A model generated the notes under the pieces. The model ran no database searches and was not told the DNA's origin. It saw only the letters and a program-made list of their open reading frames with translations. The position numbers and the translations under genes are program-made. DNA of 64,000 bases from an uncultured Bacillota bacterium (lineage in GTDB: Bacteria; Bacillota_I; Bacilli_A; RFN20; CAG-826). Below, one piece after another: positions 42,280-58,774 of this stretch. Location of the stretch: assembly GCA_949293555.1 (NCBI GenBank), contig CASFDV010000003.1:7614-71613 (forward strand). Reading direction: 5' to 3'. Position 1 is the first letter of the stretch, and the number at the start of each line of letters is the position of its first letter.

Positions 42280-42353
42280 GCCCCGCTAGTTAAATGGCAT
42301 AACAGATCCATGGTAAGGATCAATCCGTAGTTCGATTCTGCGGCGGGGCACCA
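42280..42353 (+). tRNA. tRNA-Thr (GGT)
   Basis: GCCCCGCTAGTTAAATGGCATAACAGATCCATGGTAAGGATCAATCCGTAGTTCGATTCTGCGGCGGGGCACCA. Acceptor stem GCCCCGC/GCGGGGC, anticodon loop AUGGUAA, T-loop TTCGATT. Confidence 0.85.
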
Positions 42354-42376: not shown

Positions 42377-42412
42377 CCCTGGGCTGAGGCCTAGGCGCCC
42401 AGGCATTTTTTT
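42377..42412 (+). terminator. Rho-independent terminator after tRNA-Thr
   Basis: CCTGGGC...GCCCAGG stem followed by a T7 run. Confidence 0.7.
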
Positions 42413-42626: not shown

Positions 42627-43940
42627 CTACCTTTCTCTCAGCCAGTCCTTGATGAAGAAGGCGCAGAAATGGGGGAGCGTCAGGACTTTGCCGCAGTAGG
42701 AGATGTTCTTCCTGGTGATCTTGATTCCTTCGGATATGTCCCCGTATTTCGGGTTGGCGATCGCTTCCCGGAGGCTATAGGCGTTGCCGTCCTTGCTCTT
42801 GACTTCCACCGGGACGATCCCGTCCTTGGTCCTGAGGACGAAATCCAGCTCCAAGGTGGAATCGGGCCTCTTGTAGTAGTAGAGGTCCAGCCCGCTTTTG
42901 CTCAGGCATTCCGCCACGGAATTCTCGAAGACGGCCCCTTTGTACACCCCGAAGTTCTTCCTGACCCGGAAGTCCTCCCCGCTTTCCGGGTCCAGGAGGG
43001 AGAGGAGGAGGCCTGTGTCGAAGAAATAGACCTTGAAGGCGTTTGGCACGGTGTTGCCTCGCAAGGGGATCTCGGGAAAGTTCAAGAGCCGGGAGGGGGT
43101 GACGAGCCCAGCGTCGCGAAGCCATTCGATGCATCCGAAGTAGTCGGCGAACCTTCCTCCCTTCCGGACGTGGGAGAAGACGAATTTCTTGTTCTCCTTG
43201 CCAAGCTCCGGGGCGATCGAGTCCATCACGCCGATGATTCGCTCTTGGTCCAGGCCGCCAGCGTATTTCCTGACGTCCGAGCGATAGCCGCCGATGAGTC
43301 CGTTTTGGAGTTCCGGGATGCCTTGGAAGTTTCTCCGAGCCAGATAGGACGATATGACGGCAGGCATTCCGCCAACGACCATGTAGTCGAAGAACAGGCT
43401 TTCGTATGCATCAAGCTCGTTCTCGGAGAAAGGGGACATCGCTTTCACGTGCTGGCGCATGTCCTCTGCCGTTTCCTCGCCATGGCCGCACGCCCAGAGA
43501 AACTCCTCGAAATCGAGGGAGGTCATCTTCCGGATCGTCTGGTAGCCGACGCTGATGCTTTCTATCCTGGAGAGCTGAACCCCGAGGAGAGAGCCGCTGC
43601 ATATGACGTCGTACCTTCCGTCCAGCTTGAAAAACTTGAGCGAGGATGTGATTTCGGGACAAGCTTGTATTTCATCGAAAAAGATGAGCGTCTTGCCCGG
43701 GACGAAGTTGAACGCGGGATTGACGAGGGACATGTTCCTGACGATTTTGTCCGGAGAATAGCCGTCGCCTACGATCCGGGAGAAAAGAGGATTCTCCGCG
43801 AAGTTGACGTAGGCGAGGCTTTCGTAGTTTTCCTTGGCGAACTTAAGGATGCTTTCCGTCTTTCCGACTTGCCTTGCCCCGGTGACGATCAAGGGCAGCT
43901 TGTCGGGGGCGGACTTCCATTCGAGGAGGTACATGTCCAC
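42627..43940 (-). CDS. AAA-family ATPase with DUF4143 domain (second copy in window)
   Basis: Walker A motif TGARQVGKTE and Walker B motif LIFFDEIQ. Lower GC than the core genes. Confidence 0.7.
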   Translation of the reverse strand: MDMYLLEWKSAPDKLPLIVTGARQVGKTESILKFAKENYESLAYVNFAENPLFSRIVGDGYSPDKIVRNMSLVNPAFNFVPGKTLIFFDEIQACPEITSSLKFFKLDGRYDVICSGSLLGVQLSRIESISVGYQTIRKMTSLDFEEFLWACGHGEETAEDMRQHVKAMSPFSENELDAYESLFFDYMVVGGMPAVISSYLARRNFQGIPELQNGLIGGYRSDVRKYAGGLDQERIIGVMDSIAPELGKENKKFVFSHVRKGGRFADYFGCIEWLRDAGLVTPSRLLNFPEIPLRGNTVPNAFKVYFFDTGLLLSLLDPESGEDFRVRKNFGVYKGAVFENSVAECLSKSGLDLYYYKRPDSTLELDFVLRTKDGIVPVEVKSKDGNAYSLREAIANPKYGDISEGIKITRKNISYCGKVLTLPHFCAFFIKDWLRER

Positions 43941-46629: not shown

Positions 46630-46776
46630 GGCAATAATCGCCGTTTCTTGGCGATAACTTCGCAGAACTGCCTTCAATCCCCGGATATCGTCGTTACAAG
46701 AGGAATCCCGCGGTTTTGCTAGGCAACCCTTCTTTTGGGGCATGCTTTATGCATCTTGTTGGATAGGGAGAATCCT

Positions 46777-47829
46777 ATGGAACGGGAGCGACCTTCTTTC
46801 TACAATTGCCCTATGGAAGAAAGGCTTCCCACCTACATCGCCCAGTGGACGATGGTCCTCCGGGGCATGCAGGTGGACAACACCTACAAGTGCGCTTGGG
46901 CCCGTGCAATCCTTTCCTGCCTCGGGAAGGGACGCTTCATGCAACTTCCCCCTGACGGGAAGGCGATGCTCCATTTCTCCGACATCGCCAAGGAGATGGT
47001 GAGGCTCTACTGGAACCAGACCTGCTTCTTCCACCTCCGTCAGGCGCCGGAGAAGAGAGGCCAGAGGGGTGCGCTGATCGTCTCCTACGTCGAGGACCTC
47101 ATCGAAAGCTACTATGCGCTCCTCGGGACCAGGAGGCCCTCCTGGTGGAGCGAGGCGGAGCCTCTCCTCAAGGAGGAGAAGGGGCTCCTCGAGAAGACGT
47201 TCCGCGAAGTCGGGAATGTCCTCCCCCAGAACGTCGCCCATCGCTTCCTGAACCTCAAGGGGAGGAGGGACCCCCTGCCCCTATACGAGTACCGGAGGCC
47301 CGAGAAGGCTATCTATTTCGCCTCCTGGCAGGTCGGGCTCCTCATCTCCTTCCGCGAGCTCCTCGAGGATGAGGTCGACCTCCGCTGGGCGGAGATCCTC
47401 GAGAGGTTCAACGGATCGCCGAGGATTGCGAGGAAGGTCGTCGCAGCCTCGAACGAGGAGCTGAGGAGAGGAAGCCTCAAGGAGTTCAAGGACGTCATCC
47501 AGGACGCCTACCGCCGGGTGAGGATCCCTGATTTCTACGAGGAAGGGTCCTATGTCCCTCTCGACGACTTCTCCCTCGACCACGTAATCCCGTGGAGCTA
47601 CCTTTACTCCGACGACATCTGGAACCTCGTCCCGACGAGGAAGGGGAATAACTCCGCGAAGGGGGACTCCCTCCCGGGAAAGGAGGACATCGTCCGCCTC
47701 AAGAGGAGGAACCAGGACCTCCTTCCCCGCCTCAGGGGGATGAAGGGGATGGAAAAGCACGTGGGCGCCCTCCTTTTCGCTGAGGAGAACCATCTCGTCG
47801 ACCTCTACTACGGGGGATGCCTCCTGTGA
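46777..47829 (+). CDS. HNH-endonuclease-domain protein (351 aa) with an uncharacterised N-terminal region
   Basis: C-terminal HNH motif DHVIPWSYLYSDDIWNLVPTRKGNNSAKGD. Start at MERERP, which has a GGGAG RBS. Confidence 0.55.
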   Translation: MERERPSFYNCPMEERLPTYIAQWTMVLRGMQVDNTYKCAWARAILSCLGKGRFMQLPPDGKAMLHFSDIAKEMVRLYWNQTCFFHLRQAPEKRGQRGALIVSYVEDLIESYYALLGTRRPSWWSEAEPLLKEEKGLLEKTFREVGNVLPQNVAHRFLNLKGRRDPLPLYEYRRPEKAIYFASWQVGLLISFRELLEDEVDLRWAEILERFNGSPRIARKVVAASNEELRRGSLKEFKDVIQDAYRRVRIPDFYEEGSYVPLDDFSLDHVIPWSYLYSDDIWNLVPTRKGNNSAKGDSLPGKEDIVRLKRRNQDLLPRLRGMKGMEKHVGALLFAEENHLVDLYYGGCLL

Positions 47830-48383
47830 GCGGCTTCTACGAGGAGAACGCGGAGTTCTACGTCCAGGGCACCTTCCATCTCGACATGGAGGGGACGAGG
47901 AGGAAGTTCCTTTCCTACGTCCCCGAGGGAGGGAGGATCCTCGACCTCGGGTTCGGGTCGGGAAGGGACATGCTCGCCTTTAGGGACGCTGGCTACCAGG
48001 TGGTGGGGATCGACCCCTGCCTTCCTTTCGTCCGGAGAGCAAGGTCCCTGGGGATGGAGGCGCTCGCCCTAAGGGCGGAGGACATGCCCTTCGTAAACGA
48101 GTTCGACGGAATCTGGGCCTCTGCCTCCCTCCTCCATTCGGAGGATCTCCCGAAGGCCCTGGGGAAGTGCCATAAGGCCCTTAGGGAAGGAGGGGTCCTC
48201 TACTGCTCCTTCAAGAAGGGAAGCTTCCGGGGGATGAGGGACGGGAGGTTCTACGCCGACATGGAGCCCTCCACCTTGGAGCAATCCCTGAAGATAGCGG
48301 GTTTCTTCCCTCTTTCGGTATGGACAAGCGAGGATTCCCTTAGGCCGGGCCTCTTCTGGACGAACGGGATGGCCCGTAAATAG
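47817..48383 (+). CDS. Small class I SAM-dependent methyltransferase
   Basis: Motif I ILDLGFGSGRD. No DPPY/NPPF DNA-methyltransferase motif. Overlaps the HNH gene by 13 nt. Confidence 0.65.
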   Translation: MPPVSGFYEENAEFYVQGTFHLDMEGTRRKFLSYVPEGGRILDLGFGSGRDMLAFRDAGYQVVGIDPCLPFVRRARSLGMEALALRAEDMPFVNEFDGIWASASLLHSEDLPKALGKCHKALREGGVLYCSFKKGSFRGMRDGRFYADMEPSTLEQSLKIAGFFPLSVWTSEDSLRPGLFWTNGMARK

Positions 48384-48439
48384 ACATTCGTTATACATTA
48401 AAAAAATTCCGATGAAATCGTCGTTTTTTGCACGTCATC

Positions 48440-48465
48440 TTGAAAAATCAAGGGGGGGGTATTCT
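48440..48465 (+). promoter_or_regulatory. Candidate promoter with a G8 homopolymer in the spacer (TTGAAA-N14 including G8-TATTCT), upstream of the defence operon
   Basis: G8 lies at 48452-48459 between -35-like and -10-like hexamers. The spacer is currently 14 nt, which is sub-optimal. Confidence 0.3.
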
Positions 48466-48505
48466 TCCTTTGTTTTTTGGAGGTTTCGGGAGAGTGGGAG
48501 GCAAG

Positions 48506-50692
48506 ATGGCGGAGACGAATCTTCGAGACGTGCTCGGTCTTGGCCATGACTATTCGAATACGCCAGACACCCCTATCGCGGATTACGTTTTGAATCCGTG
48601 CCTCAGGGAGGCTAAGTCCTTCGACGCCCTATTCGGCTTTTTCTCAAGCGAGTCCTTGATTGCGATCTCTCCCGGGCTGGAGACCTTCTTTTTCCATGGA
48701 GGGAAGATCCGCCTAGCGATATGCGCTTTCGTCAAGAAAGAGGACGTAGCGGCTATCCAAGAAGCCTACGAGGACAAGGAAAGATTCCAGGCGTCTTTTT
48801 CCGAAGCCGAGAAGCGTCTGCTGAAGGAACTCAGGAAGGCCGCCGAAGAGAACCCTGACTCCGTTTCCTTGCTCCGCGAGATGATTGCGGCGAATCGGTT
48901 GGAAATCATAGCCGTCGGACCCTATATGTCGTCGGGCCTGATGCACCAGAAGATCGGAGTATTCGAAGATTCGCATGGGAATTGCGTATCTTTCAGCGGA
49001 AGCTCGAATCTTACCGGAAGCGCGATCACGAGTATCAAAGGGGTGTGGAACTATGAGGACCTCAAGGTGTTCCGGTCCTGGGAAGTTGGAGAAGACAAGT
49101 ACTGCTTTTCCGATAGGAAGAAAGTCCAGGCCGCGTTTTCGGGTGAGGATCAATGGCTCGAACGAAGGGAGCTTAGTGCGATTGTCAGGGAATGCATTGA
49201 TTCCATCCCTGCCGTCTCGCTAAAGCGAAGCTCAGCAAGCGTTCCTTCGTCTGGGCAATCTTCAAGCGTTAAAGAGGATATAGGGGTTGGCTATCTATAC
49301 GACTATCAGAGAAGTGCCGTCGACAGGTGGTTTGAGATGGGTTGCCGTGGCTTCTTCATGATGGCGACTGGCACAGGGAAGACGAGGACGGCACTGGCCG
49401 CGGTCAAGGAATATTGGGAGAAGGGGAGGAACGCCATTGTTGTGGTCGCCGTCCCTCTTCTGGCCCTGGCCGACCAATGGGAAAGGGAGATTGAGCATTG
49501 GCTAGGCGTTCGGCCGATCATGTGCAATTCAAAGAACCCCCAGTGGCGAGAGGAGGTGCAAAGCGCCTTGTCCGGAAGGAGGTTCCGCAACAAGGACGCA
49601 AGGACGGTCCTCTTGGTCACGTACCACTCTAAGAAAAAACTTGAAGCCCAGCTTCGAAACTACCCTAGCGAGAAGTGCCTTCTTCTTGCCGATGAGGCTC
49701 ACCACATCGATCCCGATTGGCTTGAGCAGGCGAAATTCTTCGGCCCTTGCATAGGCTTGAGCGCCACCCCCGGGACGGGAATGCCCGGGGACGAGCTTGG
49801 TCCGCGGATCATCAGGGACTTCGGAGGACTCGCTATCTCCTTGTCGCTTGAGGAAGCTCTCGAGAAGGGCGTGCTTGTTCCATATGACTACTACCCGCTC
49901 TTCTGCCATCCCAACGACAAGGAAGAGGAGAAGTTCCGTCACTACACGCAGCTTATCGCCGCGGCCCTTCAGAGTTCCGATCCGAAGAAGAAGGAAGATT
50001 GCTCTAGGCTTATTCGCCTTCGTTCCCAGGTCGTTGCCAATTGCAGTGACAAGATTTCGCGCCTTGGCGAGTTTATTCAATCTGTAGCGAAAGAAGATCT
50101 CGACCATCTGCTTGTCTATTGCGGAGCGGGGGACATCTATGGCGGAAACATTGCCGAGGAAGAACGCTTCATCTCCTTCGTTCATAAGAAGCTGAAGGAA
50201 ACGTTGCCATGGCTGATCGTCTCCCCGTTCACCAGCCGCGAGGATAAGGTCGAGCGGACTTTGATTTTGAGAGGATTTCAGGAAGGGACGATCAACGCCA
50301 TAACTGCGATTCGCTGCCTAGACGAGGGAATCGACCTTCCCTCTATCCGTGCCGCCCTTATTCTCGCAAGCGGTTCGACTCTTCGGGAGTTCATCCAGCG
50401 GAGGGGCCGAATCCTTCGTCTTTCGAAAGAGACGGGCAAGGATCATGCCTCAATCTATGACGTGGTTTGCCTCCCCCAAGGTGCGGACTGTCAGGCCCTG
50501 GCCCGTTACGAGCTTAGGCGTTTCTATGAGTTCGCTAGGAGCGCTAGAAATTGGGAGATGGGCCTTAAGGATCGTTTGGAACATTACTTGGTTCATTACG
50601 GTCTTGGGACTATTGAGGAAGCCTTCTTTGGCAAGGAGGACGATTTCGTGATGGAGAAGATACAGATGGAAGGAGACGAAGCGGATGCCTAG
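48506..50692 (+). CDS. PLD-family (HKD) nuclease domain fused to an SF2 DEAH-box helicase
   Basis: N-terminal HKD motif LMHQKIGVFED...SGSSNLTGSA. Helicase motifs MMATGTGKT (I), LLADEAHH (II) and QRRGRILR (VI). RBS GGGAGG before the MAETNL start. Confidence 0.75.
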   Translation: MAETNLRDVLGLGHDYSNTPDTPIADYVLNPCLREAKSFDALFGFFSSESLIAISPGLETFFFHGGKIRLAICAFVKKEDVAAIQEAYEDKERFQASFSEAEKRLLKELRKAAEENPDSVSLLREMIAANRLEIIAVGPYMSSGLMHQKIGVFEDSHGNCVSFSGSSNLTGSAITSIKGVWNYEDLKVFRSWEVGEDKYCFSDRKKVQAAFSGEDQWLERRELSAIVRECIDSIPAVSLKRSSASVPSSGQSSSVKEDIGVGYLYDYQRSAVDRWFEMGCRGFFMMATGTGKTRTALAAVKEYWEKGRNAIVVVAVPLLALADQWEREIEHWLGVRPIMCNSKNPQWREEVQSALSGRRFRNKDARTVLLVTYHSKKKLEAQLRNYPSEKCLLLADEAHHIDPDWLEQAKFFGPCIGLSATPGTGMPGDELGPRIIRDFGGLAISLSLEEALEKGVLVPYDYYPLFCHPNDKEEEKFRHYTQLIAAALQSSDPKKKEDCSRLIRLRSQVVANCSDKISRLGEFIQSVAKEDLDHLLVYCGAGDIYGGNIAEEERFISFVHKKLKETLPWLIVSPFTSREDKVERTLILRGFQEGTINAITAIRCLDEGIDLPSIRAALILASGSTLREFIQRRGRILRLSKETGKDHASIYDVVCLPQGADCQALARYELRRFYEFARSARNWEMGLKDRLEHYLVHYGLGTIEEAFFGKEDDFVMEKIQMEGDEADA

Positions 50693-50894
50693 GCGTGAGG
50701 ATAAAAACGAAGTCAGCCAGGCCGCTGCAGCCCAATTGCGCGAGGGCGCTTTGTCGGAGGCGAAAGATATTCTTGCCTCTCCGCAGGTCAACCTCAGCAT
50801 GAAGAAAGCAGCAGCCCAGAAGCTTTATCAGACGGCTCTCAAGCTTGCAGAAGTCGAGCTCGCAAAAGAGGAGGACTCTGTGGATGCTGATTGA
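50685..50894 (+). CDS. Small (69 aa) predicted helical protein, translationally coupled between the helicase and ATPase genes
   Basis: AAGGAG RBS. Its ATG overlaps the upstream TAG stop, and its own stop overlaps the ATPase start. Confidence 0.45.
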   Translation: MPRREDKNEVSQAAAAQLREGALSEAKDILASPQVNLSMKKAAAQKLYQTALKLAEVELAKEEDSVDAD

Positions 50895-52959
50895 GAAGGT
50901 CTGGGCGGAGAATTTTAGAAACTTCCGTAAGTTTGGAAGGCGCGACCGCCCAATTCGTTTTAATACTGACGGCAAAGTCAACTTGATTTACGGGAAATCC
51001 GGCTTTGGGAAAAGCACTATCCTTCAGCTTCTCCAATGGATTCTCTATGGAAGATGCGAGTTTTCTGAAGACGATCTGGTCAACAGCGGGGTTAGGAAGG
51101 ACGCCGATATTGGGTCCGATGTCACTCTGTACGGGTCTTTGACCATCTTGGTGGATGGGATTCGTTATTACATTCAACGTCGTTGGCTATTCTTGAAGCA
51201 GCCCGGTGGCGGTTTGCGCAGGAAGAAGAAAAAGGATAAGAACGACCAAGAACACCCTGAAGAGTATTTCACTATTGAGAAAGAGAACCCCGATGGGAGC
51301 GCCACGCCGATTCAAGGCGAGAAAGGGGATGAGGGGCGGGAGTTTATCGATCGAATCATGCCCCAGGGGCTTGCTGGCTACTTCTTCTTTGACGGCGAAC
51401 AGTTCATAGATCGGTTTGAAGACAGCAAAAACTCAAATGGGAAGAGACTGAAGGAAGCGATCGCGACCTTGTTTCAAACGGATGTTTATAACGTTGCGAA
51501 AGAACTTCTTTCAGGATCTGCGTGGTCGGTTTCGGGCATGTTGGATAAAGGGCTAAGCGAAGCGAGATATTCCGGCTTCAAAGGCCTGGAAGAGGCTCGC
51601 GAGGCTGAGGAGCAAGCAAAAAACTCTTTTCACAGGGCGGAACAGATGTGCGAATTGCGGAGGCAGGAAGCAAAATCCGAACAGAAAGAGATGCTTGTCC
51701 TTTCCGAAACGCTTAAGGACATCCCTAACCAGGAAGATTTGAAGAGGCGGATTAACGATTTAGAGAAGGAACAGGAGTCGTTGCGGAGGCAGTATGACGA
51801 CCTTCTTCTTAAGATTGCCGCTTCTGCTAGGTCCCATTTCATGTCCTTTGCCGTTGCCAAGAATGTCGTTGATGCCGTAAGGATGAAACCGGATGAGATT
51901 GGCGACCAGGAAGTGCCGGCCTCGTTGACCAAAGAACTTATTGAATGCCTAGAGGAAAAGGAAGAATGCATTTGCGGCCACCGTATTGGGAAACTGGAGA
52001 GAGAGCAGTTGGAACGATGGCTTACAGCGCTCCCTCCAGCATCCTATCGACCGACATACGATTCTTATCTCGAGCGGAAAGACTCAGCAGTGGAGCATGA
52101 ATTGGAGCGGGGATTCCGCGACTTGCACAGCCTCGTGGAGGAACTGGTCGCCAAAGAAGAACGAATTAGAGTCTTGGCCAACAAGCTCAAGGAGGCCTGG
52201 GAGCGGCAGCGGGCGGGTTTTGATGCCGATGCCGAAAGCAAATGGAAAAGGCTAAGGGCGCTTCAGGAGAAAGTTAAAAAGACCAACGATTCTATTGGTG
52301 AGTTATCTGCGGAGGCCGATCGAAAGAAACACATCTGGGAAGCGGCAAGGAAACGTTTTGATGAGGCCTTAAGGCAGGCGAACATCGCCCGAAAGGAGCG
52401 CTATGCCCTTTCGTTGTCCAACGAGGTCGCCGAGCTTTTTGAAGCACTCGCCAAGCAACGTACCTTAAATGTCCGAACGGATCTCCAGCAAGCGATCGAA
52501 GAGTACCTCAACAAAATCCTTGTAGGAGCCGTAAAGACCGCTGAGCTAAGCGAGGATTTCAAGCTTACGATCCGCGAGGGGGATATCACTTACAAGTCGA
52601 GAGGCCAGGCCGCAGTCGCCTGCTATAGCTATGTCCTTGGCATCCTCGCGGTTCTTAAGCGTTTCCGGGATCGCCATGAGGATGACATCCTTGACCTCTC
52701 CGACGAATACCCACTTGTCATCGACGCCCCTTTCAGCGAGACCGACAGGGAGCAGACCCTGCATGCCCTTTCCTATTTCCGTGAGATTCCTAAGCAGATT
52801 GTCCTTATGTCCAACCGCGACCTGAACGACATGGTCGAAGAAGTGGACGCGGGGACCATCTATGTCATTAAAGGCGTAGGGGTGGACGCCTTCATCGAGG
52901 AATGCTCTTACGAGGATGTGGATCGCTACTTTGCCGAGGGTGGCGAGAAGGAGGACTAG
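50884..52959 (+). CDS. SMC/RecF-like AAA ATPase (AAA_23-type N-terminal Walker A with coiled-coil middle), DndD paralogue-like
   Basis: VNLIYGKSGFGKSTILQLLQWILYG P-loop, a long coiled-coil, and C-terminal Walker B/D-loop (LVIDAPFSETD). RBS AGAGGAGGA. Confidence 0.7.
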   Translation: MLIEKVWAENFRNFRKFGRRDRPIRFNTDGKVNLIYGKSGFGKSTILQLLQWILYGRCEFSEDDLVNSGVRKDADIGSDVTLYGSLTILVDGIRYYIQRRWLFLKQPGGGLRRKKKKDKNDQEHPEEYFTIEKENPDGSATPIQGEKGDEGREFIDRIMPQGLAGYFFFDGEQFIDRFEDSKNSNGKRLKEAIATLFQTDVYNVAKELLSGSAWSVSGMLDKGLSEARYSGFKGLEEAREAEEQAKNSFHRAEQMCELRRQEAKSEQKEMLVLSETLKDIPNQEDLKRRINDLEKEQESLRRQYDDLLLKIAASARSHFMSFAVAKNVVDAVRMKPDEIGDQEVPASLTKELIECLEEKEECICGHRIGKLEREQLERWLTALPPASYRPTYDSYLERKDSAVEHELERGFRDLHSLVEELVAKEERIRVLANKLKEAWERQRAGFDADAESKWKRLRALQEKVKKTNDSIGELSAEADRKKHIWEAARKRFDEALRQANIARKERYALSLSNEVAELFEALAKQRTLNVRTDLQQAIEEYLNKILVGAVKTAELSEDFKLTIREGDITYKSRGQAAVACYSYVLGILAVLKRFRDRHEDDILDLSDEYPLVIDAPFSETDREQTLHALSYFREIPKQIVLMSNRDLNDMVEEVDAGTIYVIKGVGVDAFIEECSYEDVDRYFAEGGEKED

Positions 52960-53484
52960 ATGAACAACAGCCAGCCAATTTCAAGTTCCATCGTCCTTTA
53001 TGGCGCACCTTGGCATGAGGCCAGGGCAAAGTTTTGCCAAAACAAAGGGAACGGCATCCTCTTCGAGACTGCCGCCGAGCTGTTCATCTTTTGCTCGGCG
53101 ATAGGGGTGCGAATCGGCTCTCCGACCGAACAATTTCCACCGGATGAGGAAAACCCGCAAGGCGTCGAGGTTCCTTATACGGTCCTTGAGCGGCCAAAGA
53201 ACAAGGATTTTCTTAGCGACCTCTACGCGACTGTTTTGTTTAACCGGTGGATTGAACCAAAAAAGACAGACATTCAGCGTCTGGAGGTGATTTTCGAGAA
53301 GGGTGCTCCCTCTGACCGCCACAAGATCCTTGAGCCCTATGCGCGGACAGGGGTCCTCCACCTTCTCGAATACACGAAGGACTTTGTGAAGGAATGGCCC
53401 CTCATTGAACGAGTGTGGTCGGATCTTGCGGAACTCTACGAAGAACCGCGCATCCTTGGAGGGGAAGATTCTTCAGAGGAATGA
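52960..53484 (+). CDS. Hypothetical 174-aa protein of the defence operon
   Basis: ATG lies immediately after the ATPase stop codon. Its stop overlaps the dndC start (ATGA). No recognisable motif; weak resemblance to DndE only. Confidence 0.5.
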   Translation: MNNSQPISSSIVLYGAPWHEARAKFCQNKGNGILFETAAELFIFCSAIGVRIGSPTEQFPPDEENPQGVEVPYTVLERPKNKDFLSDLYATVLFNRWIEPKKTDIQRLEVIFEKGAPSDRHKILEPYARTGVLHLLEYTKDFVKEWPLIERVWSDLAELYEEPRILGGEDSSEE

Positions 53485-54860
53485 CGATGACAGAGGATGG
53501 TCGCCTTTCCGTCTTTTCGTCCGTCCTCGAGGACATGGAGAGGGTGTACCTCCACGACCAGAGGCCCTGGATGATCGGCTATAGCGGGGGCAAGGACTCC
53601 TCTCTTTTGACGATGCTCGCCTTCGAGATGCTCCAGAAGATCCCGGAAGGCAAGCGTTGGAAACCGATATACGTGGTTTCCAGCGATACTCGCCTTGAGA
53701 ACCCGGTCGTCTCCCTCTACATGCATGCGTCCAACCGGAAGATCGGACGTTACGCCCATGAAAACAATCTCCCGGTCATCTCGGAAATCATCTATCCCAA
53801 GGACGAAGAGACGTTCTGGACCCTCGTGATCGGGAAAGGCTATCCGACCCCGGAGCCTCCGGGGTTCCGCTGGTGCACCGAGCGTTTGAAAATCAATCCG
53901 ATGAACCGTTTCGTCGACGGGATCATCCAGGAGCATGGCGAAGTCGTCATCCTCCTGGGAGTCCGCAAGGGCGAGTCCGGGACGAGGAAGAGGAGCATCG
54001 AGTCCCGCGAGATCGAGGGGCGGCTTCTCCAGCATCACGAGACTCTCCCCAAGGCGTGGGTATTCAATCCTCTCACGGAGGTCCCTAACGACCTTGTCTG
54101 GCCCTATCTCCTGAAAGGGGATGGAATCGCCCCTTGGGGGACCGACCTTAAGAAGCTTTACGCGATGTATCGCGGGGCCGACCTTTCCGAGGAGCAGTCC
54201 GTGATCGGGCAGGTCGACATCTCGAACATGCCGGTCACGGGGAACAGCCGCTTCGGGTGCTGGTGCTGCACCATCGTGAAGGAGGACAAGTCCCTCGCGA
54301 ACTTCATCGCGAAGGGCGCGAACGAACTCGCTCCTCTGAGGGATTTCCGGAACTGGCTCGTCTCGATCCGGCAGGACCCCGCCTACCGGGAGAAGCATCG
54401 GGCGAACGGGAAGGTCTACAGGAAATCGGACGGGGAAGTCGGGCTTGGCCCTTTCACCCTGGACGCGAGGGAGGAGATCCTGCGGAGGCTTCTCGCCCTT
54501 CAAAAGAGGACCGGCTTCTCGCTCATATCGGAAGGAGAGCTCCGCCTCATCGATCGCGCCTGGGAGGACGAGGGGGATTTGTCGCGCCGGCGCCTTGTGG
54601 ACGCCTACCGTGACGTCATGGGGAAGAAGCTTCCATGGGACGAGGAGAAGCGCGCCCTGATGGACGAGGATTTCCTCAGGGAGCTTGAGGATTTGTGCGA
54701 TAGGAACGGCCTTCCGTTCGAGGCCATCGGGAAGGTCCTCATGGCGGTCGAGAAGGGGAGGGTCGGGAAGACCAGGGATGCCCTCCGCAAGTCTGCGAAG
54801 AGAATTCTTTCCCAAGAGTATCTCCATCAGGACGCGCTGAGGGAGGGGGAGGAAGCATGA
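53481..54860 (+). CDS. dndC: DNA phosphorothioation protein DndC (PAPS-reductase-like PP-loop ATP pyrophosphatase)
   Basis: PP-loop motif MIGYSGGKDSS, conserved NSRFGCWCCT cysteine motif, about 460 aa. Directly followed by dndD and dndE. Confidence 0.8.
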   Translation: MTMTEDGRLSVFSSVLEDMERVYLHDQRPWMIGYSGGKDSSLLTMLAFEMLQKIPEGKRWKPIYVVSSDTRLENPVVSLYMHASNRKIGRYAHENNLPVISEIIYPKDEETFWTLVIGKGYPTPEPPGFRWCTERLKINPMNRFVDGIIQEHGEVVILLGVRKGESGTRKRSIESREIEGRLLQHHETLPKAWVFNPLTEVPNDLVWPYLLKGDGIAPWGTDLKKLYAMYRGADLSEEQSVIGQVDISNMPVTGNSRFGCWCCTIVKEDKSLANFIAKGANELAPLRDFRNWLVSIRQDPAYREKHRANGKVYRKSDGEVGLGPFTLDAREEILRRLLALQKRTGFSLISEGELRLIDRAWEDEGDLSRRRLVDAYRDVMGKKLPWDEEKRALMDEDFLRELEDLCDRNGLPFEAIGKVLMAVEKGRVGKTRDALRKSAKRILSQEYLHQDALREGEEA

Positions 54861-56953
54861 AGATTCTCGCCGCGGAAATCGAAAACTTCGGCCCCTACGT
54901 CGGGCGCACCCGCTTCGACCTTTCTCCCGAAGGGACCATCCGCAGGATTGTGCTTATGGGAGGGAAGAACGGAGCGGGCAAGACGACTTTCTTCGAGTCG
55001 CTCCGGCTTGCGCTTTACGGTCCGAAGGCGTTCGGCCTTGCCGTCAGGAACGCCAAGTACGGTAAGAAAGTCGCCTCCCTCGTCAACAAGCGCGTGCTCC
55101 GGGAAGGGAAGGCGCGGGCCTCGGTCGCCGTTTCCCTTCGCCTTGAGGACGGGAACCATGAGAACGGATCCTATCGGCTCGATCGTTCCTGGGAAATCGA
55201 GGGCAAGGACGTCAGGGAAACCCTCAAGGTGTCCTTCAAGCCGGATAACGGGGACGAGAGGCTCCTTGGCAGGGAAGAGGAACAGGACTTCGAGATGACG
55301 CTTGAGTCCCTCTTGCCCTTGTCGCTTTTCCCGTTCTATTTCTTCGACGGGGAGAAACTCACGGACTTCTTTCTGGACGGCAAGGGCTTCCGCGAGACCT
55401 TGATCGCGATGACCGGGCTGGAGAGCCTCGACATGCTCGTCTCGATCCTTGGCGACCTCGCGAAGAAGGAGGGGAGGGCGAAGGACGCCGGGAGGCGGTT
55501 CGAAAAGGCGGAGAAAACCTATCTTTCCCTTAAGTCGAAATGGGATGCCCTCCGCGAGGAACGGGATGCCCTGAAAGAGGAAATCGAGAAAAAGGAAGAG
55601 GATTTCCAGGAATTTCAGAAGGAATTCCTTAGAAAAGGAGGCCTTTCCGTGAAGGCAAGGCGCGCCCTTGAGAAAGAAATAGAGCATGAGACGGAAGAAA
55701 GGGAGAGGAAGCGCGTGGAGCTCAAGGCCTTTGCGAACACGCATCTCCCTCTCCTCATCATGGAACGACAGGTGCGGAAGGCGCTTGAGGGGGCCGATTC
55801 CTCCCGTTCCGCCTTCCTTGTCCGGGAGATCAAGAAGGCCGCGGAGGAGCGAGGGGTCCTCCCTCTTATTTCCGAGCAGCTCGGTCCCGAAGGACTCGAC
55901 GGGCTCCTTAGGTCCATCTTCGGGGAGGAGGCGCTCAAGGGGGAAGGCGCAGGCTTCTACCGCCCCTCGCCGGAAGAACTTTCTCGCATTCATGAGCAAT
56001 TGGCGGAGGCTAGGTCCGCCGACCTTGGCTATTTCAAGGCGATCGAGGAAGACATCTATGGCTCCATGTCGATGCAGCGGGGGATACGGGAAAGGCTCAA
56101 AGGAGTTTCCGAGGAAGGAGAGAGGGCGCTTGAGAAAGAGCGGAAGGAACTGGAGAAGTTCCGCTTCTCTGTCCTGAGGAAGATCAGGGAGAAAGAAGAT
56201 TCCCTGGAGGCGCTCCTTCCCGATTTCCTTAAGGCGGAGGCGGAATATCGCTCGGCTTCCAAGGAGAGGGACGACCGGCTGAGGGAAGAGTCCGCGCACA
56301 GCCTTGCCGCGAAGGCGCACCTTGTCCTCGCGGAGTTCGAACGCCATCTTTTCGCGAAGCAGGTGGATCGGCTGAAGGACTCCTTCCTCTCCATCTTCTC
56401 TTCGATCATCAACAAGGACGGCCTTGTCGACGGGCTTGAAGTCGATTCCATGCTCCGCGTCTACCCCGTTCTTTCCGAACAGGTATCCCTGGGGGAGATG
56501 GCGCGCCTCCGCGAGGAGCTGGGAGAAGCCGAGTTCGAAGAACGATACGGGGAGGCTGCCCTTTCCATGACCTATCTTGAGATGGATGAAGAACAGGTCC
56601 GGATGCCACTCAAGGTAAGCGGGATGTCCGCCGGGGAGAGGCAGGTGTATCTATTCGCTCTCTACGGGGCCCTTGCCACGATCGCCGACCACCGGATGCC
56701 CTTCCTCATCGATTTCCCGTTCGGCCGGGTCGATACCGTCCACCGCATGGGCATGGTGGACCATTTCTTCCTTTCCCTTCCCGGGCAGGTCGTCATCCTT
56801 TCGACGGACGAGGAGGTGCAAGGGGCGCTTCTGGAGGAGATGGACCCCTTCATCGCGAGGTCCTACACGATCGAGAGCAAGGGGGACGGGACTAGCCGCG
56901 TTCTCGAAGGCGTCTACTTCGGGAAGGAGGTTCCTTATGGGAAACAGGCTTAG
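54857..56953 (+). CDS. dndD: DNA sulfur modification protein DndD (SMC-like ATPase)
   Basis: Characteristic N-terminus MKILAAEIENFGPY...IVLMGGKNGAGKTTFFESLRLALYGP, long coiled-coil, C-terminal ABC signature/Walker B (GMSAGERQ, PFLIDFPF). ATGA overlap with dndC. Confidence 0.85.
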   Translation: MKILAAEIENFGPYVGRTRFDLSPEGTIRRIVLMGGKNGAGKTTFFESLRLALYGPKAFGLAVRNAKYGKKVASLVNKRVLREGKARASVAVSLRLEDGNHENGSYRLDRSWEIEGKDVRETLKVSFKPDNGDERLLGREEEQDFEMTLESLLPLSLFPFYFFDGEKLTDFFLDGKGFRETLIAMTGLESLDMLVSILGDLAKKEGRAKDAGRRFEKAEKTYLSLKSKWDALREERDALKEEIEKKEEDFQEFQKEFLRKGGLSVKARRALEKEIEHETEERERKRVELKAFANTHLPLLIMERQVRKALEGADSSRSAFLVREIKKAAEERGVLPLISEQLGPEGLDGLLRSIFGEEALKGEGAGFYRPSPEELSRIHEQLAEARSADLGYFKAIEEDIYGSMSMQRGIRERLKGVSEEGERALEKERKELEKFRFSVLRKIREKEDSLEALLPDFLKAEAEYRSASKERDDRLREESAHSLAAKAHLVLAEFERHLFAKQVDRLKDSFLSIFSSIINKDGLVDGLEVDSMLRVYPVLSEQVSLGEMARLREELGEAEFEERYGEAALSMTYLEMDEEQVRMPLKVSGMSAGERQVYLFALYGALATIADHRMPFLIDFPFGRVDTVHRMGMVDHFFLSLPGQVVILSTDEEVQGALLEEMDPFIARSYTIESKGDGTSRVLEGVYFGKEVPYGKQA

Positions 56954-57314
56954 GACGTCCCTTCATACGAAGAAGGTGTTCGACGAGGTGAGGAACATCA
57001 GCCGCCTCCAGCCGTTCGCTCTTTCGAAGATCGCCCTCGCCTTGTCCATTCGCATGGAAACCCCCTTGTCGGAGGAAGACTTCAAGACAGATAACGAGGG
57101 GCTTGAGCTGGCAAGGGAAACCGTATGCGGACCGTATGATTCCCTCTTTTCCATGGTCGTGTGCGAGGACGCTGGGAAGGCGATCGCGGACTCGGAAATC
57201 TTCTCCACCTATTTCAAGGCCCATATCGACCGGGGCGCGAAGGAACTGGAGAAGGAGTTCCGTTACGACAAGAGGCTTTTCCGTCGCCTCATCGGCCTGA
57301 AGGATTCGATCTAG
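56937..57314 (+). CDS. dndE: DNA sulfur modification protein DndE
   Basis: 125 aa, immediately downstream of dndD with a 17-nt overlap. RBS GGAAGGAGG. Sequence pattern ISRLQPFALSKIALALSI...FKAHIDRG is typical of DndE. Confidence 0.7.
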   Translation: MGNRLRTSLHTKKVFDEVRNISRLQPFALSKIALALSIRMETPLSEEDFKTDNEGLELARETVCGPYDSLFSMVVCEDAGKAIADSEIFSTYFKAHIDRGAKELEKEFRYDKRLFRRLIGLKDSI

Positions 57315-57381
57315 CACTGCTTTGATATCGCCTTTTCAATACAAGGCAAATCAACGTATCTACGGTTTTTTATAACTAAAC

Positions 57382-57420
57382 TCCAGAAAATCCGGAATGC
57401 AATTCCAGAAAATCCGGAAT
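57382..57420 (+). repeat. Two direct copies of TCCAGAAAATCCGGAAT (22-bp period) flanking a GGAATGCAATTCC palindrome
   Basis: Copies at 57382-57398 and 57404-57420, immediately after the dnd operon and before a truncated gene. Confidence 0.7.
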
Positions 57421-57432
57421 TCAGTCCTTTTC

Positions 57433-57948
57433 CTAGAGGAAGAGGAACGCCTCGGCCTGGAGGGCGAGTAGCCCTATGAGGAGGGCGGGCACCGCGACCA
57501 TGAGGCCTTCCCTCGTGAAGCGAAGGAAGGTGAGAGGGGCCCCTTCCTCCCTTACCTTCTGGAGGAACATGAGCCCAGCAAGGGCCTCGAAGGGGGTGAG
57601 ATAGGCGGCGAGGTTCGAGGAAAGGATGACCGCGTAGGGGGCAAGGGCCTCGTAAGGGGCGGACAGGAACACTTCCTCGAAGAGGACGGACATGGGGATG
57701 TTGTTCATGAGGTTCGCCAGGAGCATCGACCCGAGCCCGTGGCTCCAGATCGAATAGCCCTCCTGGTTCAGGTTCCCCGCGAGGAGGGAGGTGATCCCCT
57801 GCTCGTCCAGGGCAAGGACGACGACGAACATTCCGAGGAGGAGGGGGAGGAGGGAATAGGGAAGCCTCCCGCTGGAGAAGGGCCTGACGCTCCCCTCGAT
57901 CGACCTCGGCTTCCTGGAGGTGGGGTCCACCACCTTCTTCTGGATCAT
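57433..57948 (-). pseudogene. C-terminal fragment (171 aa) of an ArsB/NhaD-family permease; N-terminal part missing and replaced by lgt on the opposite strand
   Basis: Only the C-terminal hydrophobic segments are present. The ORF start overlaps the lgt start region. Confidence 0.4.
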
Positions 57949-58651
57949 CGGGATCCTGATGACGGTGCCCTTCTACTCCTACTTCGCCCCTAAGGTGGGT
58001 ATATCTAGACCCTTGGGGATCCTCGTCGGGCTCCTCATCGTCATCCTCGAGGCCTTCGGGGCGAAGATCCTTTTCTTCATCGAAAACCCCTCCTCCCTCG
58101 GGGACGGGGTGAGCTGGCTCGGGGGCTTCTCCCTCTTCGGGGTGTTCCTCTTCTCTCCTCTCTTCCTCGTCCTCGTCGCCCTTTTCCTCAAGAGGGACGT
58201 CCTCTCCTTCCTCGACTACTACGCGCCCGGGATCCTCATCGAGCTCGCCTTCTACCGGGTGGGGTGCACCCTCGCCGGGTGCTGCCGGGGGATCTACGTG
58301 GGCTGGGGGATCTCGGACGGGAGGACGGACGGGCTCTTCCCCGTCCAGCCCGTCGAGATCGCCCTCGACCTCCCTCTCTTCGCCTTCCTCCTGTTCCTGA
58401 TCCTCCGGAAGGACGCCTTCTCGAGGAAAGGGCTTCTCCTCGGCGCCACGTTCCTCGGCTACGGGGCGATCCGCTTCGCCCTGGAGTTCGTCCGGGAAAG
58501 GACGAACATCCTCTGGGAGCTCTCCCTTTCCCACGTCTGGGCCTTGATCACGATCCTCGCGGGCGCCCTTTTCCTCCTCCTTTCCCTTTGGAAAGGGAAG
58601 AAGGCCGGGAAAGAAGGGGGCAAGCCCTCCCTTTCCGACGTAAATCGTTAA
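57920..58651 (+). CDS. lgt: Prolipoprotein diacylglyceryl transferase
   Basis: Polytopic membrane protein carrying the Lgt signature GYGAIRFALEFVRE. Confidence 0.8.
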   Translation: MGSTTFFWIIGILMTVPFYSYFAPKVGISRPLGILVGLLIVILEAFGAKILFFIENPSSLGDGVSWLGGFSLFGVFLFSPLFLVLVALFLKRDVLSFLDYYAPGILIELAFYRVGCTLAGCCRGIYVGWGISDGRTDGLFPVQPVEIALDLPLFAFLLFLILRKDAFSRKGLLLGATFLGYGAIRFALEFVRERTNILWELSLSHVWALITILAGALFLLLSLWKGKKAGKEGGKPSLSDVNR

Positions 58652-58774
58652 TCTTTCTCCGGAAACCCCCTTTCTGCAGGGATTTCCCGCGCCCATCCGC
58701 GAATTCCTTGCAAAGCGTTCCTTCCCTCCTTTACGATGAAGTCGCCCCAAGGGGCCATCAAGGAGGTGCCTACC

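What the first reader, a model, noticed from the sequence alone, without database searches (positions are those of the whole stretch)
48384..48505. G8 homopolymer inside the putative promoter of the defence operon — possible phase-variable expression
A run of eight G (48452-48459) sits between a TTGAAA hexamer and a TATTCT hexamer, giving a 14-nt spacer. Gain or loss of G residues would change spacer length towards or away from the 17-nt optimum. This is the classic slipped-strand mechanism for ON/OFF switching of restriction or defence loci. The interval is also markedly AT-rich compared with the flanking genes.
Basis: inference. Interest (0 to 1): 0.55.

Follow-up and report, generated by a model that had tools for sequence, protein, structure and literature searches.

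The report
Conserved poly-G promoter of Pbe-Dnd operon
A run of eight G's sits between two promoter-like hexamers in front of a seven-gene DNA-phosphorothioation defence operon; every known relative of the operon keeps it as an unbroken run of 8, 9 or 10 G's, so it is a real length-sensitive control element, but rapid ON/OFF switching is not shown.

Summary
G8 lies at 48452-48459, between TTGAAA (48440-45) and TATTCT (48460-65), with a 14-nt spacer, in a 40%-GC gap of a 60%-GC window.

The operon downstream is pbeABCD-dndCDE, a phosphorothioate-based defence system.

The main new result is comparative. PbeA's subfamily has only five protein clusters, down to 41% identity, and one host locus is 35% GC. 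All 23 related loci fetched carry the same block, C-TTGAAA-AWTCAA-G(8-10)-TATYCT, just upstream of pbeA, while the rest of the intergenic DNA has diverged. The G run is never interrupted. It is the only G/C run of 7 or more in every locus.

Run length differs between lineages (8, 9 or 10; spacer 14, 15 or 16). It differs once between loci that are 98.6% identical. It never differs within a sublineage across independent samples.

pbeA is under strong purifying selection in G8 and G9 lineages, so these are not dead OFF states.

Best reading, about 50%: this is the operon's own promoter, with a selectively maintained poly-G spacer whose length sets expression. That is a porA-type slippage knob. 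High-frequency phase variation remains untested.

Problems for this reading: no allele reaches 17 nt, and one lineage has a 20-nt spacing.

Verdict: a new member of a known kind, of moderate interest.

The parts
48410..48429 (+). Weak terminator-like hairpin plus T6 after the upstream methyltransferase gene (CGATGAAATCGTCG TTTTTT)
   Evidence: If it works, it insulates the pbe operon from read-through, so the operon needs its own promoter. It is not clearly conserved in L002.
48434..48467 (+). Conserved non-coding block GTCATC-TTGAAA-AATCAA-G8-TATTCT-TC
   Evidence: Alignment of 9 distinct upstream sequences and the flank table. The invariant columns are the G run, TAT-CT and A..T in the spacer. 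The flanks are otherwise diverged. The window and L009 (41% PbeA identity) differ at only 2 positions of the 32-nt core, 48434-48465 (the two bases after TATTCT also differ).
48440..48445 (+). -35-like hexamer TTGAAA (5/6 match to TTGACA)
   Evidence: It is identical in four of the five lineages. The AT-rich-host lineage L006 has TTGTCA, displaced 5 nt upstream.
48439..48452 (+). Palindrome CTTGA-AAAA-TCAAG overlapping the -35 hexamer and the first G
   Evidence: Read. In L009 and L016 it is CTTGAA-AA-TTCAAG. It is imperfect in L002 and absent in L006, so a role as an operator is only a possibility.
48452..48459 (+). Uninterrupted G8 tract (G9 or G10 in relatives)
   Evidence: It is the only G/C run of 7 or more in every related locus, including a locus of 35% GC.
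48460..48465 (+). -10-like hexamer TATTCT (T-12, A-11 and T-7 present); TATCCT in some relatives
   Evidence: The only variable position is -9, and conservation ends at -7.
48496..48501 (+). Shine-Dalgarno GGGAGG, 4 nt before the pbeA ATG
48506..50692 (+). pbeA (728 aa; an HKD-like motif plus an SF2 helicase)
   Evidence: PADLOC PbeA, E 1e-157. Pfam ResIII and Helicase_C. The invariant H147-x-K149...D155...G165-S166-x-N168 fits an HKD motif.
50685..50894 (+). pbeB-position small gene (69 aa)
   Evidence: Called in L001 and L003. No HMM hit. The small, rapidly evolving protein of these systems is described in PMC10853773.
50884..52959 (+). pbeC (691 aa ABC-type ATPase)
   Evidence: PADLOC PbeC, E 8e-54.
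52960..53484 (+). pbeD-position gene (174 aa)
   Evidence: Assigned by synteny only. No HMM hit.
53481..54860 (+). dndC (459 aa)
   Evidence: PADLOC DndC, E 5e-123. The start is taken from the gene call in L001.
54857..56953 (+). dndD (698 aa)
   Evidence: PADLOC DndD, E 7e-99.
56937..57314 (+). dndE (125 aa), the last gene of the operon
   Evidence: PADLOC DndE, E 2e-8, on residues 91-194 of the ORF. The methionine at ORF codon 89 is taken as the start.

Best explanation
The block 48439-48465 is the pbeABCD-dndCDE operon's own sigma-70-type core promoter: -35 TTGAAA, -10 TATTCT, and a spacer made mostly of an uninterrupted G tract that directly abuts the -10 hexamer. The tract has been kept pure by selection in every lineage of this cassette.

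Slipped-strand gain or loss of a G changes the -35/-10 spacing by one base pair. The alleles seen are G8 = 14 nt, G9 = 15 nt and G10 = 16 nt. Tract length therefore sets how strongly the whole defence and modification operon is transcribed.

The window's G8 allele is predicted to be the weakest state, and G10 to be close to canonical strength. The comparative data fit a heritable, slowly changing tuning knob, with each lineage holding one length. They do not show a fast population-level ON/OFF switch, although a minority of switched cells within populations is not excluded.

Shown: the anatomy, the conservation, the length polymorphism and the purifying selection on the genes. Inferred: that the hexamers are used by RNA polymerase, and that tract length changes expression.
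For: 1. Five PbeA lineages (100, 81, 68, 47 and 41% identity), found without reference to the DNA motif, all carry Gn-TATYCT 32-49 nt upstream of the pbeA ATG. Four of them carry C-TTGAAA-AWTC.. directly upstream of the run.
2. Conservation begins at the -35 hexamer and ends exactly at the last base of the -10 hexamer. The only variable hexamer position is -9, the least constrained position of -10 elements.
3. The run is never interrupted. It is the only G/C run of 7 or more in each locus, even in a locus of 35% GC. Distant pbeA genes on plasmids have no such tract.
4. Length varies (8, 9, 10) with no compensating change in the rest of the spacer. L009 (G8) and L013 (G9) are 98.6% identical.
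5. The lengths are reproducible across assemblers and studies within each sublineage, so they are not sequencing noise.
6. In the G10 lineage the consensus scanner calls TTGAAA-16-TATTCT as the only sigma-70-like site in 750 nt, where 0.1 is expected.
7. The host uses canonical spacing elsewhere: TTGCAT-17-TAACAT lies before tRNA-Thr.
8. The cassette keeps the block where its upstream neighbours differ (a transposase in L016, other genes in L024, HNH plus methyltransferase elsewhere). The block therefore belongs to the operon.
9. A poly-G tract in the -10/-35 spacer whose length sets transcript level is established for N. meningitidis porA (review PMC3899988).
Against: - No observed allele has the 17-nt optimum. 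Most assemblies are G8 or G9 (14-15 nt), which for a canonical sigma-70 promoter should be nearly inactive.
- Yet pbeA shows dN/dS of 0.02-0.05 in the G8 and G9 pairs with enough substitutions to judge. The operon must therefore be expressed in these lineages.
- In the AT-rich-host lineage (L006, L007, L008, L021) the -35-like TTGTCA lies 20 nt from TATCCT. Four assemblies all have G9, which does not fit one common spacing rule.
- The six bases between the -35 hexamer and the run (AWTCAA / ATTTCA) are also conserved, which a passive spacer does not require.
- Length never differs among assemblies of the same sublineage.
- No transcription start site, expression data or read-level data are available.
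Confidence: 0.5

Rival explanations
1. The block is a fixed cis-regulatory site, either an operator for a repressor or activator, or a structural promoter element. In this reading the G run is read for its sequence or its DNA geometry. A wobble of one or two bases is tolerated and carries no regulatory meaning, so there is no switch and no tuning.
For: - The run stays within a narrow range (8-10) and keeps perfect purity across very deep divergence.
- The adjacent spacer bases AWTCAA are conserved as well.
- A palindrome, CTTGA-N4-TCAAG or CTTGAA-N2-TTCAAG, overlaps the -35 hexamer.
- Length is stable within sublineages.
- The genes are under purifying selection at every tract length.
- The non-canonical spacings of 14-15 and 20 nt suggest that a helper factor is needed.
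Against: - A protein that reads both flanks would be put out of register by changes of 1-2 bp, yet G8, G9 and G10 all persist.
- The palindrome is imperfect in L002 and absent in L006.
- No regulator gene is recognisable in the cassette. There is no DndB, and the 69-aa and 174-aa proteins have no HMM hits.
- No second copy of the motif occurs in the window.
Confidence: 0.25
2. The true -10 element is the A-rich hexamer just upstream of the run: AAAAAT in the window and TACAAT in L006. Transcription would then start inside the G run. RNA polymerase would slip on the G's (reiterative transcription, as at B. subtilis pyrG or E. coli codBA/upp), which would couple the output of the operon to nucleotide pools.
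For: - In all lineages a -10-like hexamer ends 3-4 nt before the run. In L006 it is TACAAT, a 5/6 match. When sequences are aligned on the G run, these hexamers line up.
- This reading would explain why the run must be pure while its length is loosely constrained.
- It would also explain why L006 keeps the run despite its displaced TTGTCA.
Against: - No -35-like hexamer lies 16-18 nt upstream of these hexamers in any lineage, and that DNA is not conserved.
- AAAAAT lacks T-12.
- The model leaves the exact conservation of TATYCT unexplained.
- The comparison with pyrG, codBA and upp rests on general knowledge and was not tested here.
Confidence: 0.1
3. The G run is one arm of an RNA hairpin in a transcribed leader (G8 / UAUU / CUUCCUUU followed by U6). 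The hairpin would act as an intrinsic terminator or attenuator, or it would mask the ribosome-binding site.
For: - The terminator scan lists this hairpin at 48449-48472 with a T-rich tail.
- The window's fold gives -17.9 kcal/mol with a z-score of -2.05.
Against: - The CU-rich arm and the U tract are not conserved in L002, L005 or L006.
- Folds of the relatives are no better than shuffled sequence (z from -1.6 to +0.65), and each has a different pairing.
- Rfam gives no match at E<=1.
- The stem is mostly G-U pairs.
Confidence: 0.04
4. The tract is a chance or neutral homopolymer, or the length differences are assembly artefacts.
For: - Base composition alone predicts 3-6 runs of G8 or longer in 64 kb.
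- Homopolymer lengths are error-prone in some sequencing technologies.
Against: - The run is unbroken in all five lineages while the flanks diverge. It includes a G9 in a locus of 35% GC.
- Lengths are identical across independent assemblies, assemblers and studies within each sublineage.
- G/C runs of 6 or more are otherwise strongly depleted.
Confidence: 0.01

Closest known systems
Neisseria meningitidis porA promoter (a poly-G tract in the -10/-35 spacer)
   Same: A homopolymeric G tract forms the promoter spacer, and gain or loss of one G changes the spacing. In porA this changes the transcript level (review PMC3899988).
   Different: - Here the host is an uncultured Firmicute (as titled in the record of the relative L002), not a host-adapted pathogen.
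- The cargo is a phosphorothioate defence operon, not a surface antigen.
- The observed spacers are 14-16 nt, below the optimum.
- Variation is seen between lineages, not among clonal isolates.
- The effect on expression is untested.
Other promoter simple-sequence-repeat switches (H. influenzae hifA/hifB TA repeats; N. meningitidis nadA TAAA repeats)
   Same: A change in repeat number alters the spacing of promoter or operator elements (PMC3899988).
   Different: Those use di- or tetranucleotide repeats, have proven population-level switching, and in some cases involve regulator-binding sites.
Phase-variable restriction-modification and defence genes (phasevarion mod genes; the G tract in pglX of the Streptomyces coelicolor Pgl/BREX-like system)
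   Same: A defence or modification system placed under control of a slippage-prone tract. The comparison is from my own knowledge and was not tested here.
   Different: In those systems the tract lies inside the coding sequence and acts by frameshift. Here it is in the promoter and would control restriction and modification genes together.
DndB-mediated repression of dndBCDE
   Same: It is the known mode of transcriptional control of phosphorothioate modification operons. DndB binds the promoter, and relief of repression raises transcription about 15-fold (as quoted in PMC6459918).
   Different: There is no dndB in this cassette. As in the archaeal dndCDEA-pbeABCD clusters, control must be of another kind.
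PbeABCD-DndCDE(A) phosphorothioate defence (Xiong et al. 2019; re-annotated by Aravind's group in 2024)
   Same: The gene content and order match: pbeA, a small gene, pbeC, a small gene, then dndC, dndD and dndE.
   Different: - This is a small bacterial subfamily of PbeA with only five 90% clusters.
- No dndA lies in the operon.
- All members carry the poly-G block, which distant members lack.

Membership tests
Simple-sequence contingency promoter (homopolymer in the -35/-10 spacer, porA type) | An uninterrupted homopolymer long enough to slip (about 7-8 nt or more) | tested here: met
   G8 in the window, G9 or G10 in relatives, never interrupted. The length threshold is from general knowledge.
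Simple-sequence contingency promoter (homopolymer in the -35/-10 spacer, porA type) | The tract lies between functional -35 and -10 hexamers | tested here: inconclusive
   The hexamers TTGAAA and TATYCT flank the tract, and their boundaries coincide with the limits of conservation. At G10 the scanner calls the site. No transcription start site is available, and the L006 lineage has a 20-nt spacing.
Simple-sequence contingency promoter (homopolymer in the -35/-10 spacer, porA type) | Tract length varies among closely related strains | tested here: inconclusive
   Lengths of 8, 9 and 10 occur between lineages, and 8 versus 9 occurs in one pair at 98.6% identity. Six other pairs at 97-99.9% identity show no variation, and identical sequences from different samples all agree.
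Simple-sequence contingency promoter (homopolymer in the -35/-10 spacer, porA type) | Tract-length heterogeneity within a population (reversible, high-frequency) | not testable with these tools
   Only consensus assemblies are available, with no reads.
Simple-sequence contingency promoter (homopolymer in the -35/-10 spacer, porA type) | Tract length changes expression of the downstream genes | not testable with these tools
   This needs reporter fusions or transcript data. One indirect result: the genes are under purifying selection in G8 and G9 lineages, so these lengths are not permanently silent.
PbeABCD-DndCDE phosphorothioate defence system | PbeA: an HKD nuclease motif fused to an SF2 helicase | tested here: met
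   PADLOC PbeA, E 1e-157. ResIII and Helicase_C. The invariant pattern HxK...D...GSxN.
PbeABCD-DndCDE phosphorothioate defence system | PbeC: an ABC-type ATPase next to small PbeB and PbeD genes | tested here: met
   PbeC, E 8e-54. The 69-aa and 174-aa genes sit in the expected positions in all lineages. However, the two small proteins have no HMM hit, so their identity rests on synteny alone.
PbeABCD-DndCDE phosphorothioate defence system | Modification genes dndC, dndD and dndE (and dndA/iscS) | tested here: met
   DndC 5e-123, DndD 7e-99 and DndE 2e-8. No dndA lies in the operon, and a cysteine desulfurase elsewhere in the genome was not looked for.
Intrinsic terminator or attenuator leader | A stable stem-loop plus U tract, conserved in relatives | tested here: not met
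   It is present only in the window lineage. There is no conserved fold in the five other lineages folded. No Rfam family matches.
Reiterative-transcription control (pyrG / codBA type) | A homopolymer at the transcription start, with a promoter placed to start inside it | tested here: inconclusive
   A -10-like hexamer ends 3-4 nt before the run in all lineages, but none has a -35 partner. The transcription start site is unknown.

The most novel reading that the evidence does not exclude
The poly-G block would be a portable control module that travels with this pbe-dnd cassette between hosts of very different base composition. It would work not as a passive spacer but as a sensor. One version has transcription starting in the G run, with slippage that depends on the GTP pool. 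The other has a G-tract-specific DNA structure or binding factor. Either would tie expression of a phosphorothioate defence system to the cell's nucleotide or infection state. This would explain the tract's purity, the conserved flanks, the non-canonical spacings of 14-16 and 20 nt, and the stable lineage-specific lengths.
Probability: 0.1. Interest if true: 0.75.

Novelty: new member of a known kind. Interest (0 to 1): 0.5.

Why it matters
Control of phosphorothioate defence systems is known mainly through the DndB repressor. Pbe-linked cassettes lack DndB, and how they are regulated is unknown.

A slippage-prone promoter tract that governs the restriction genes (pbe) and the modification genes (dnd) together would give these bacteria a heritable and reversible way to raise, lower or silence a costly DNA-modifying immune system. 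Such a switch would be safe, because Pbe was reported to be non-toxic without phosphorothioate modification (PMC6459918).

It would also extend contingency-type regulation to uncultured environmental Firmicutes and to phosphorothioate-based immunity. Finally, the 32-nt block is a simple marker for finding this cassette.

Tried and rejected
- **JGI metagenome pattern scan.** The scan for CTTGAAAAWTCNNGGGGG-N(0-9)-TATYCT gave 3 hits. The only one checked, L010, lies inside a minus-strand ORF and has no pbe homologue. None of the three has an uninterrupted G run of 8 or more, so all were treated as chance matches.
- **Viral-contig scans.** Two scans found nothing.
- **Wider protein search.** A profile search found no further subfamily members beyond the five clusters.
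- **Rfam.** No match.
- **RNA hairpin or attenuator.** Not conserved.
- **Sigma-B/F-type reading** (GTTTAA-N12-15-GGGTAT, from general knowledge). GGGTAT is present in all lineages. CTTGAA lies 12-14 nt upstream in four lineages, but it matches the -35 consensus at only 4 of 6 positions, and nothing comparable exists in L006. Left as unsupported.
- **Sigma-54, ECF (TGAAAC-N16-CGTA) and CodY-box readings.** Inspection of the sequence shows too many mismatches or wrong spacing.
- **N-terminal extension of pbeA through the tract.** The frame is open from the TTG at 48428 when the run is G8. One gene caller used such a start in L009, giving 736 aa instead of 713. This was rejected because the same DNA is called at the ATG elsewhere (L022 is identical to L009), the G9 and G10 alleles are out of frame, and all homologues align from the ATG with a Shine-Dalgarno sequence.
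- **Distant pbeA genes on plasmids.** No G tract upstream, so the feature is specific to this subfamily.
- **Second copy of the block in the window.** None.

Full report
**What is in the sequence.**
- Eight G's lie at 48452-48459.
- TTGAAA lies at 48440-48445 and TATTCT at 48460-48465, so the spacer is 14 nt.
- The element sits in the 122-nt gap between a SAM-methyltransferase ORF, which ends at 48383, and an ATG at 48506 preceded by GGGAGG.
- The gap is 40% GC (36% without the run), against 60% for the window.
- G8 is the longest homopolymer in the 64 kb.
- Base composition alone would allow a few such runs: 3-6 are expected. But G/C runs are sharply depleted beyond five bases in this window (153, 11, 1 and 1 runs of length 5, 6, 7 and 8).
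- The consensus promoter scanner does not list the site, because it only accepts spacers of 16-18 nt.

**What the tract sits in front of.** The downstream genes form a compact, overlapping operon:

| Gene | Coordinates | Evidence |
|---|---|---|
| pbeA | 48506-50692 | PADLOC, E 1e-157 |
| 69-aa gene | 50685-50894 | position only |
| pbeC | 50884-52959 | E 8e-54 |
| 174-aa gene | 52960-53484 | position only |
| dndC | 53481-54860 | E 5e-123 |
| dndD | 54857-56953 | E 7e-99 |
| dndE | 56937-57314 | E 2e-8 |

This is the PbeABCD-DndCDE phosphorothioate-based defence system (Xiong et al. 2019, PMC6459918; re-annotated in PMC10853773). The label 'defence operon' is therefore right. There is no dndB repressor gene.

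**Comparative evidence, the main result.**
- A search of about 5.8 billion proteins with PbeA, followed by a profile search, shows a small subfamily of five 90%-identity clusters. Their identity to the window protein is 100, 81, 68, 47 and 41%. Everything else is at 34% or below.
- I fetched 23 contigs that encode these proteins or other members of their clusters.
- Every one carries an uninterrupted G run followed directly by TATYCT, 32-49 nt upstream of the pbeA ATG.

The block in each lineage is:

| Lineage (PbeA identity) | Sequence |
|---|---|
| Window | GTCATC-TTGAAA-AATCAA-G8-TATTCT |
| L009 (41%) | GTCATC-TTGAAA-ATTCAA-G8-TATCCT |
| L002 (81%) | GCCGGC-TTGAAA-AATCCT-G9-TATTCT |
| L005 (68%, contig starts inside the block) | ATTCAA-G9-TATTCT |
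| L006 (47%, a 35%-GC locus) | CAC-TTGTCA-ATACAATTTCA-G9-TATCCT |

- Outside this block the intergenic DNA cannot be aligned between lineages.
- Conservation begins one base before TTG and ends exactly at the last T of TATYCT. The single variable position in that hexamer is the fourth base (-9). This is the pattern expected of a -35/-10 pair.
- In every locus the run is the only G/C run of 7 or more, including the AT-rich locus, where a G9 is wildly improbable by composition.
- pbeA homologues on plasmids at about 30% identity have ordinary upstream regions with no such tract.
- The block stays with pbeA when the upstream neighbours change: HNH plus methyltransferase in most lineages, a transposase in L016, and other genes in L024.
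- Chance and neutral drift are therefore excluded. This is a selected cis-element of the cassette.

**Does the tract vary in length?** Yes between lineages, but not detectably within them.

| Sublineage | Loci and relationships | Tract |
|---|---|---|
| W | window = L001; L015 at 99.7% nt identity, from another study | G8 |
| 2 | L002 = L003 = L004; L019 at 99.0%; L020 at 99.5% | G9 |
| 3 | L005 | G9 |
| 4 | L006 = L008; L007 and L021 at 99.9% | G9 |
| 5a1 | L009 = L022 = L023 | G8 |
| 5a2 | L013 = L014, 98.6% to 5a1 | G9 |
| 5b | L016 = L017 = L018; L024 at 97.2% | G10 |

- Lengths are reproducible across assemblers (submitted scaffolds versus Logan) and across studies, so they are real alleles rather than homopolymer errors.
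- Only one of seven pairs at 97% identity or above differs. That is roughly one change per 0.1 synonymous substitutions per site.
- This is far slower than the clone-to-clone variability of classical contingency loci. The range is also narrow (8-10) across very deep divergence.
- The pattern indicates that length is under selection in each lineage. It argues against unbiased rapid switching.
- Consensus assemblies cannot reveal minority sub-populations.

**Are the short-spacer alleles silent?** For pbeA, L009 (G8) versus L013 (G9) has 24 synonymous and 2 non-synonymous differences, giving dN/dS of 0.02. Within the G9 lineage 2, dN/dS is 0.05. All seven genes are intact in the window. The operon is therefore expressed and useful in G8 and G9 lineages. 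Either these alleles drive low but sufficient transcription, possibly with a helper factor, or cells pass through longer alleles often enough for selection to act.

**Mechanism and difficulties.** The best-supported model is a porA-type promoter. A poly-G tract abuts the -10 hexamer and makes up most of the spacer. Slipped-strand gain or loss of a G shifts the spacing (14, 15 or 16 nt observed) and thereby the promoter strength. For N. meningitidis porA the effect of one G on transcript level is documented (PMC3899988).

Points in favour:
- In the G10 lineage the scanner calls TTGAAA-16-TATTCT as the only sigma-70-like site in 750 nt, where 0.1 is expected.
- The host uses canonical 17-nt spacing before tRNA-Thr, TTGCAT-17-TAACAT.
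- One promoter controls both pbe and dnd, so turning both down together should be harmless. PbeABCD was reported to be non-toxic and inactive without phosphorothioate modification (PMC6459918).

Points against:
- No allele reaches 17 nt.
- The L006 lineage has a 20-nt spacing that no single rule reconciles with 14-16.
- The spacer bases next to the run are conserved too.

These points keep two rivals alive.
- **A factor-binding or structural element.** The run would be read as such. A palindrome, CTTGA-N4-TCAAG, overlaps the -35 hexamer in some lineages.
- **A start site inside the run with reiterative transcription.** A -10-like hexamer, AAAAAT or TACAAT, ends 3-4 nt before the run in all lineages, but it has no -35 partner.

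An RNA hairpin or attenuator (G8 pairing with CUUCCUUU, followed by U6) is specific to the window lineage. It is not conserved and has no Rfam match.

**Comparison with known systems, and novelty.**
- In mechanism the closest known case is the porA poly-G promoter spacer. Other promoter repeat switches (hifA/B, nadA) are related.
- In biology the closest cases are phase-variable restriction-modification or BREX-like genes, where the tract lies inside the coding sequence.
- Full-text searches for phase variation or homopolymeric tracts together with phosphorothioate systems found no report of such control for Dnd, Pbe or Ssp systems.
- I therefore rate it a new member of a known kind. The anatomy and the between-lineage polymorphism meet the family's sequence-level criteria. 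Within-population switching and the effect on expression, which define phase variation, could not be tested.

**Verdict.**
- Interest is 0.5. The universal retention of a pure G8-10 tract across hosts of 35-60% GC is striking, and it makes the regulation of phosphorothioate defence directly testable, but the underlying principle is familiar.

Noticed in passing
window 46735-48383; also L002/L003, L006, L013, L019, L021, L022: An HNH_4-domain protein and a small SAM-dependent methyltransferase lie immediately upstream of pbeA in most lineages. Their order is swapped in the L006 lineage. They are absent in L016 (a transposase instead) and L024. They may be an accessory module of this cassette. 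The methyltransferase weakly matches the PADLOC model mad2 (E 2e-14).
   Followed up: partly
window 42280-42353 and 42378-42412: tRNA-Thr has a canonical TTGCAT-17-TAACAT promoter and a strong terminator hairpin followed by T7. The DNA from here to about 57.4 kb has lower GC (about 0.48-0.60, against 0.60-0.71 beyond 58 kb). The pbe-dnd cassette may therefore sit in an island next to the tRNA. No integrase was seen.
   Followed up: partly
L009 920-926 versus L013 (same position); window 48400-48406: About 50 nt upstream of the G run, L009 has an A6 tract and L013 has A5. This second tract lies within a tandem AAAAAACTTACT x2 repeat. So a second homopolymer in the same regulatory region is also polymorphic in length. 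The window has an A7 and two T6 runs in its 122-nt gap.
   Followed up: no
L009 957-1026; cluster members P0005, P0134, P0136, P0142 (736 aa), 8 members of 713 aa, and 3 members of 648 aa: Gene callers disagree on the pbeA start. With G8 the frame stays open from a TTG inside TTGAAA, which gives a spurious 23-aa extension. Identical DNA (L022 = L009) is called at the ATG. L024, called at 648 aa, has an intact 713-codon ORF. Annotated protein lengths in this family are therefore not reliable.
   Followed up: yes
L013 871-1500; L009 396-956: Cluster-5 loci have about 560-630 nt of apparently non-coding DNA upstream of the block. This DNA is about 85% conserved between sublineages 5a and 5b and holds only ORFs of 84 aa or less. 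Its function is unknown.
   Followed up: partly
L005 position 1: The 3.4-kb MEGAHIT contig of the 68%-identity lineage begins 6 nt before the G9 run. A contig break at this spot could reflect a branch in the assembly graph at the tract, but it is a single case.
   Followed up: no
window 42627-43940 (- strand): An AAA_14 / DUF4143 ATPase gene lies between the tRNA-Thr and the defence region. Several large ORFs nearby (for example 57311-58942 on the - strand and 58736-60793 on the + strand) have no Pfam hit.
   Followed up: no
L026 (Ruegeria plasmid NZ_CP045388.1) 1-1048: In a distant pbeA locus, a large gene annotated as 'sigma factor-like helix-turn-helix DNA-binding protein' directly precedes and abuts pbeA. 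This hints that other Pbe subfamilies carry dedicated transcription factors.
   Followed up: no
samples ERZ17292900-904 and ERZ162680xx-682xx / ERR106104xx-106xx: Four of the five diverged cassette lineages occur together within each of two sample series. Several variants of this rare cassette therefore coexist in the same habitat.
   Followed up: no
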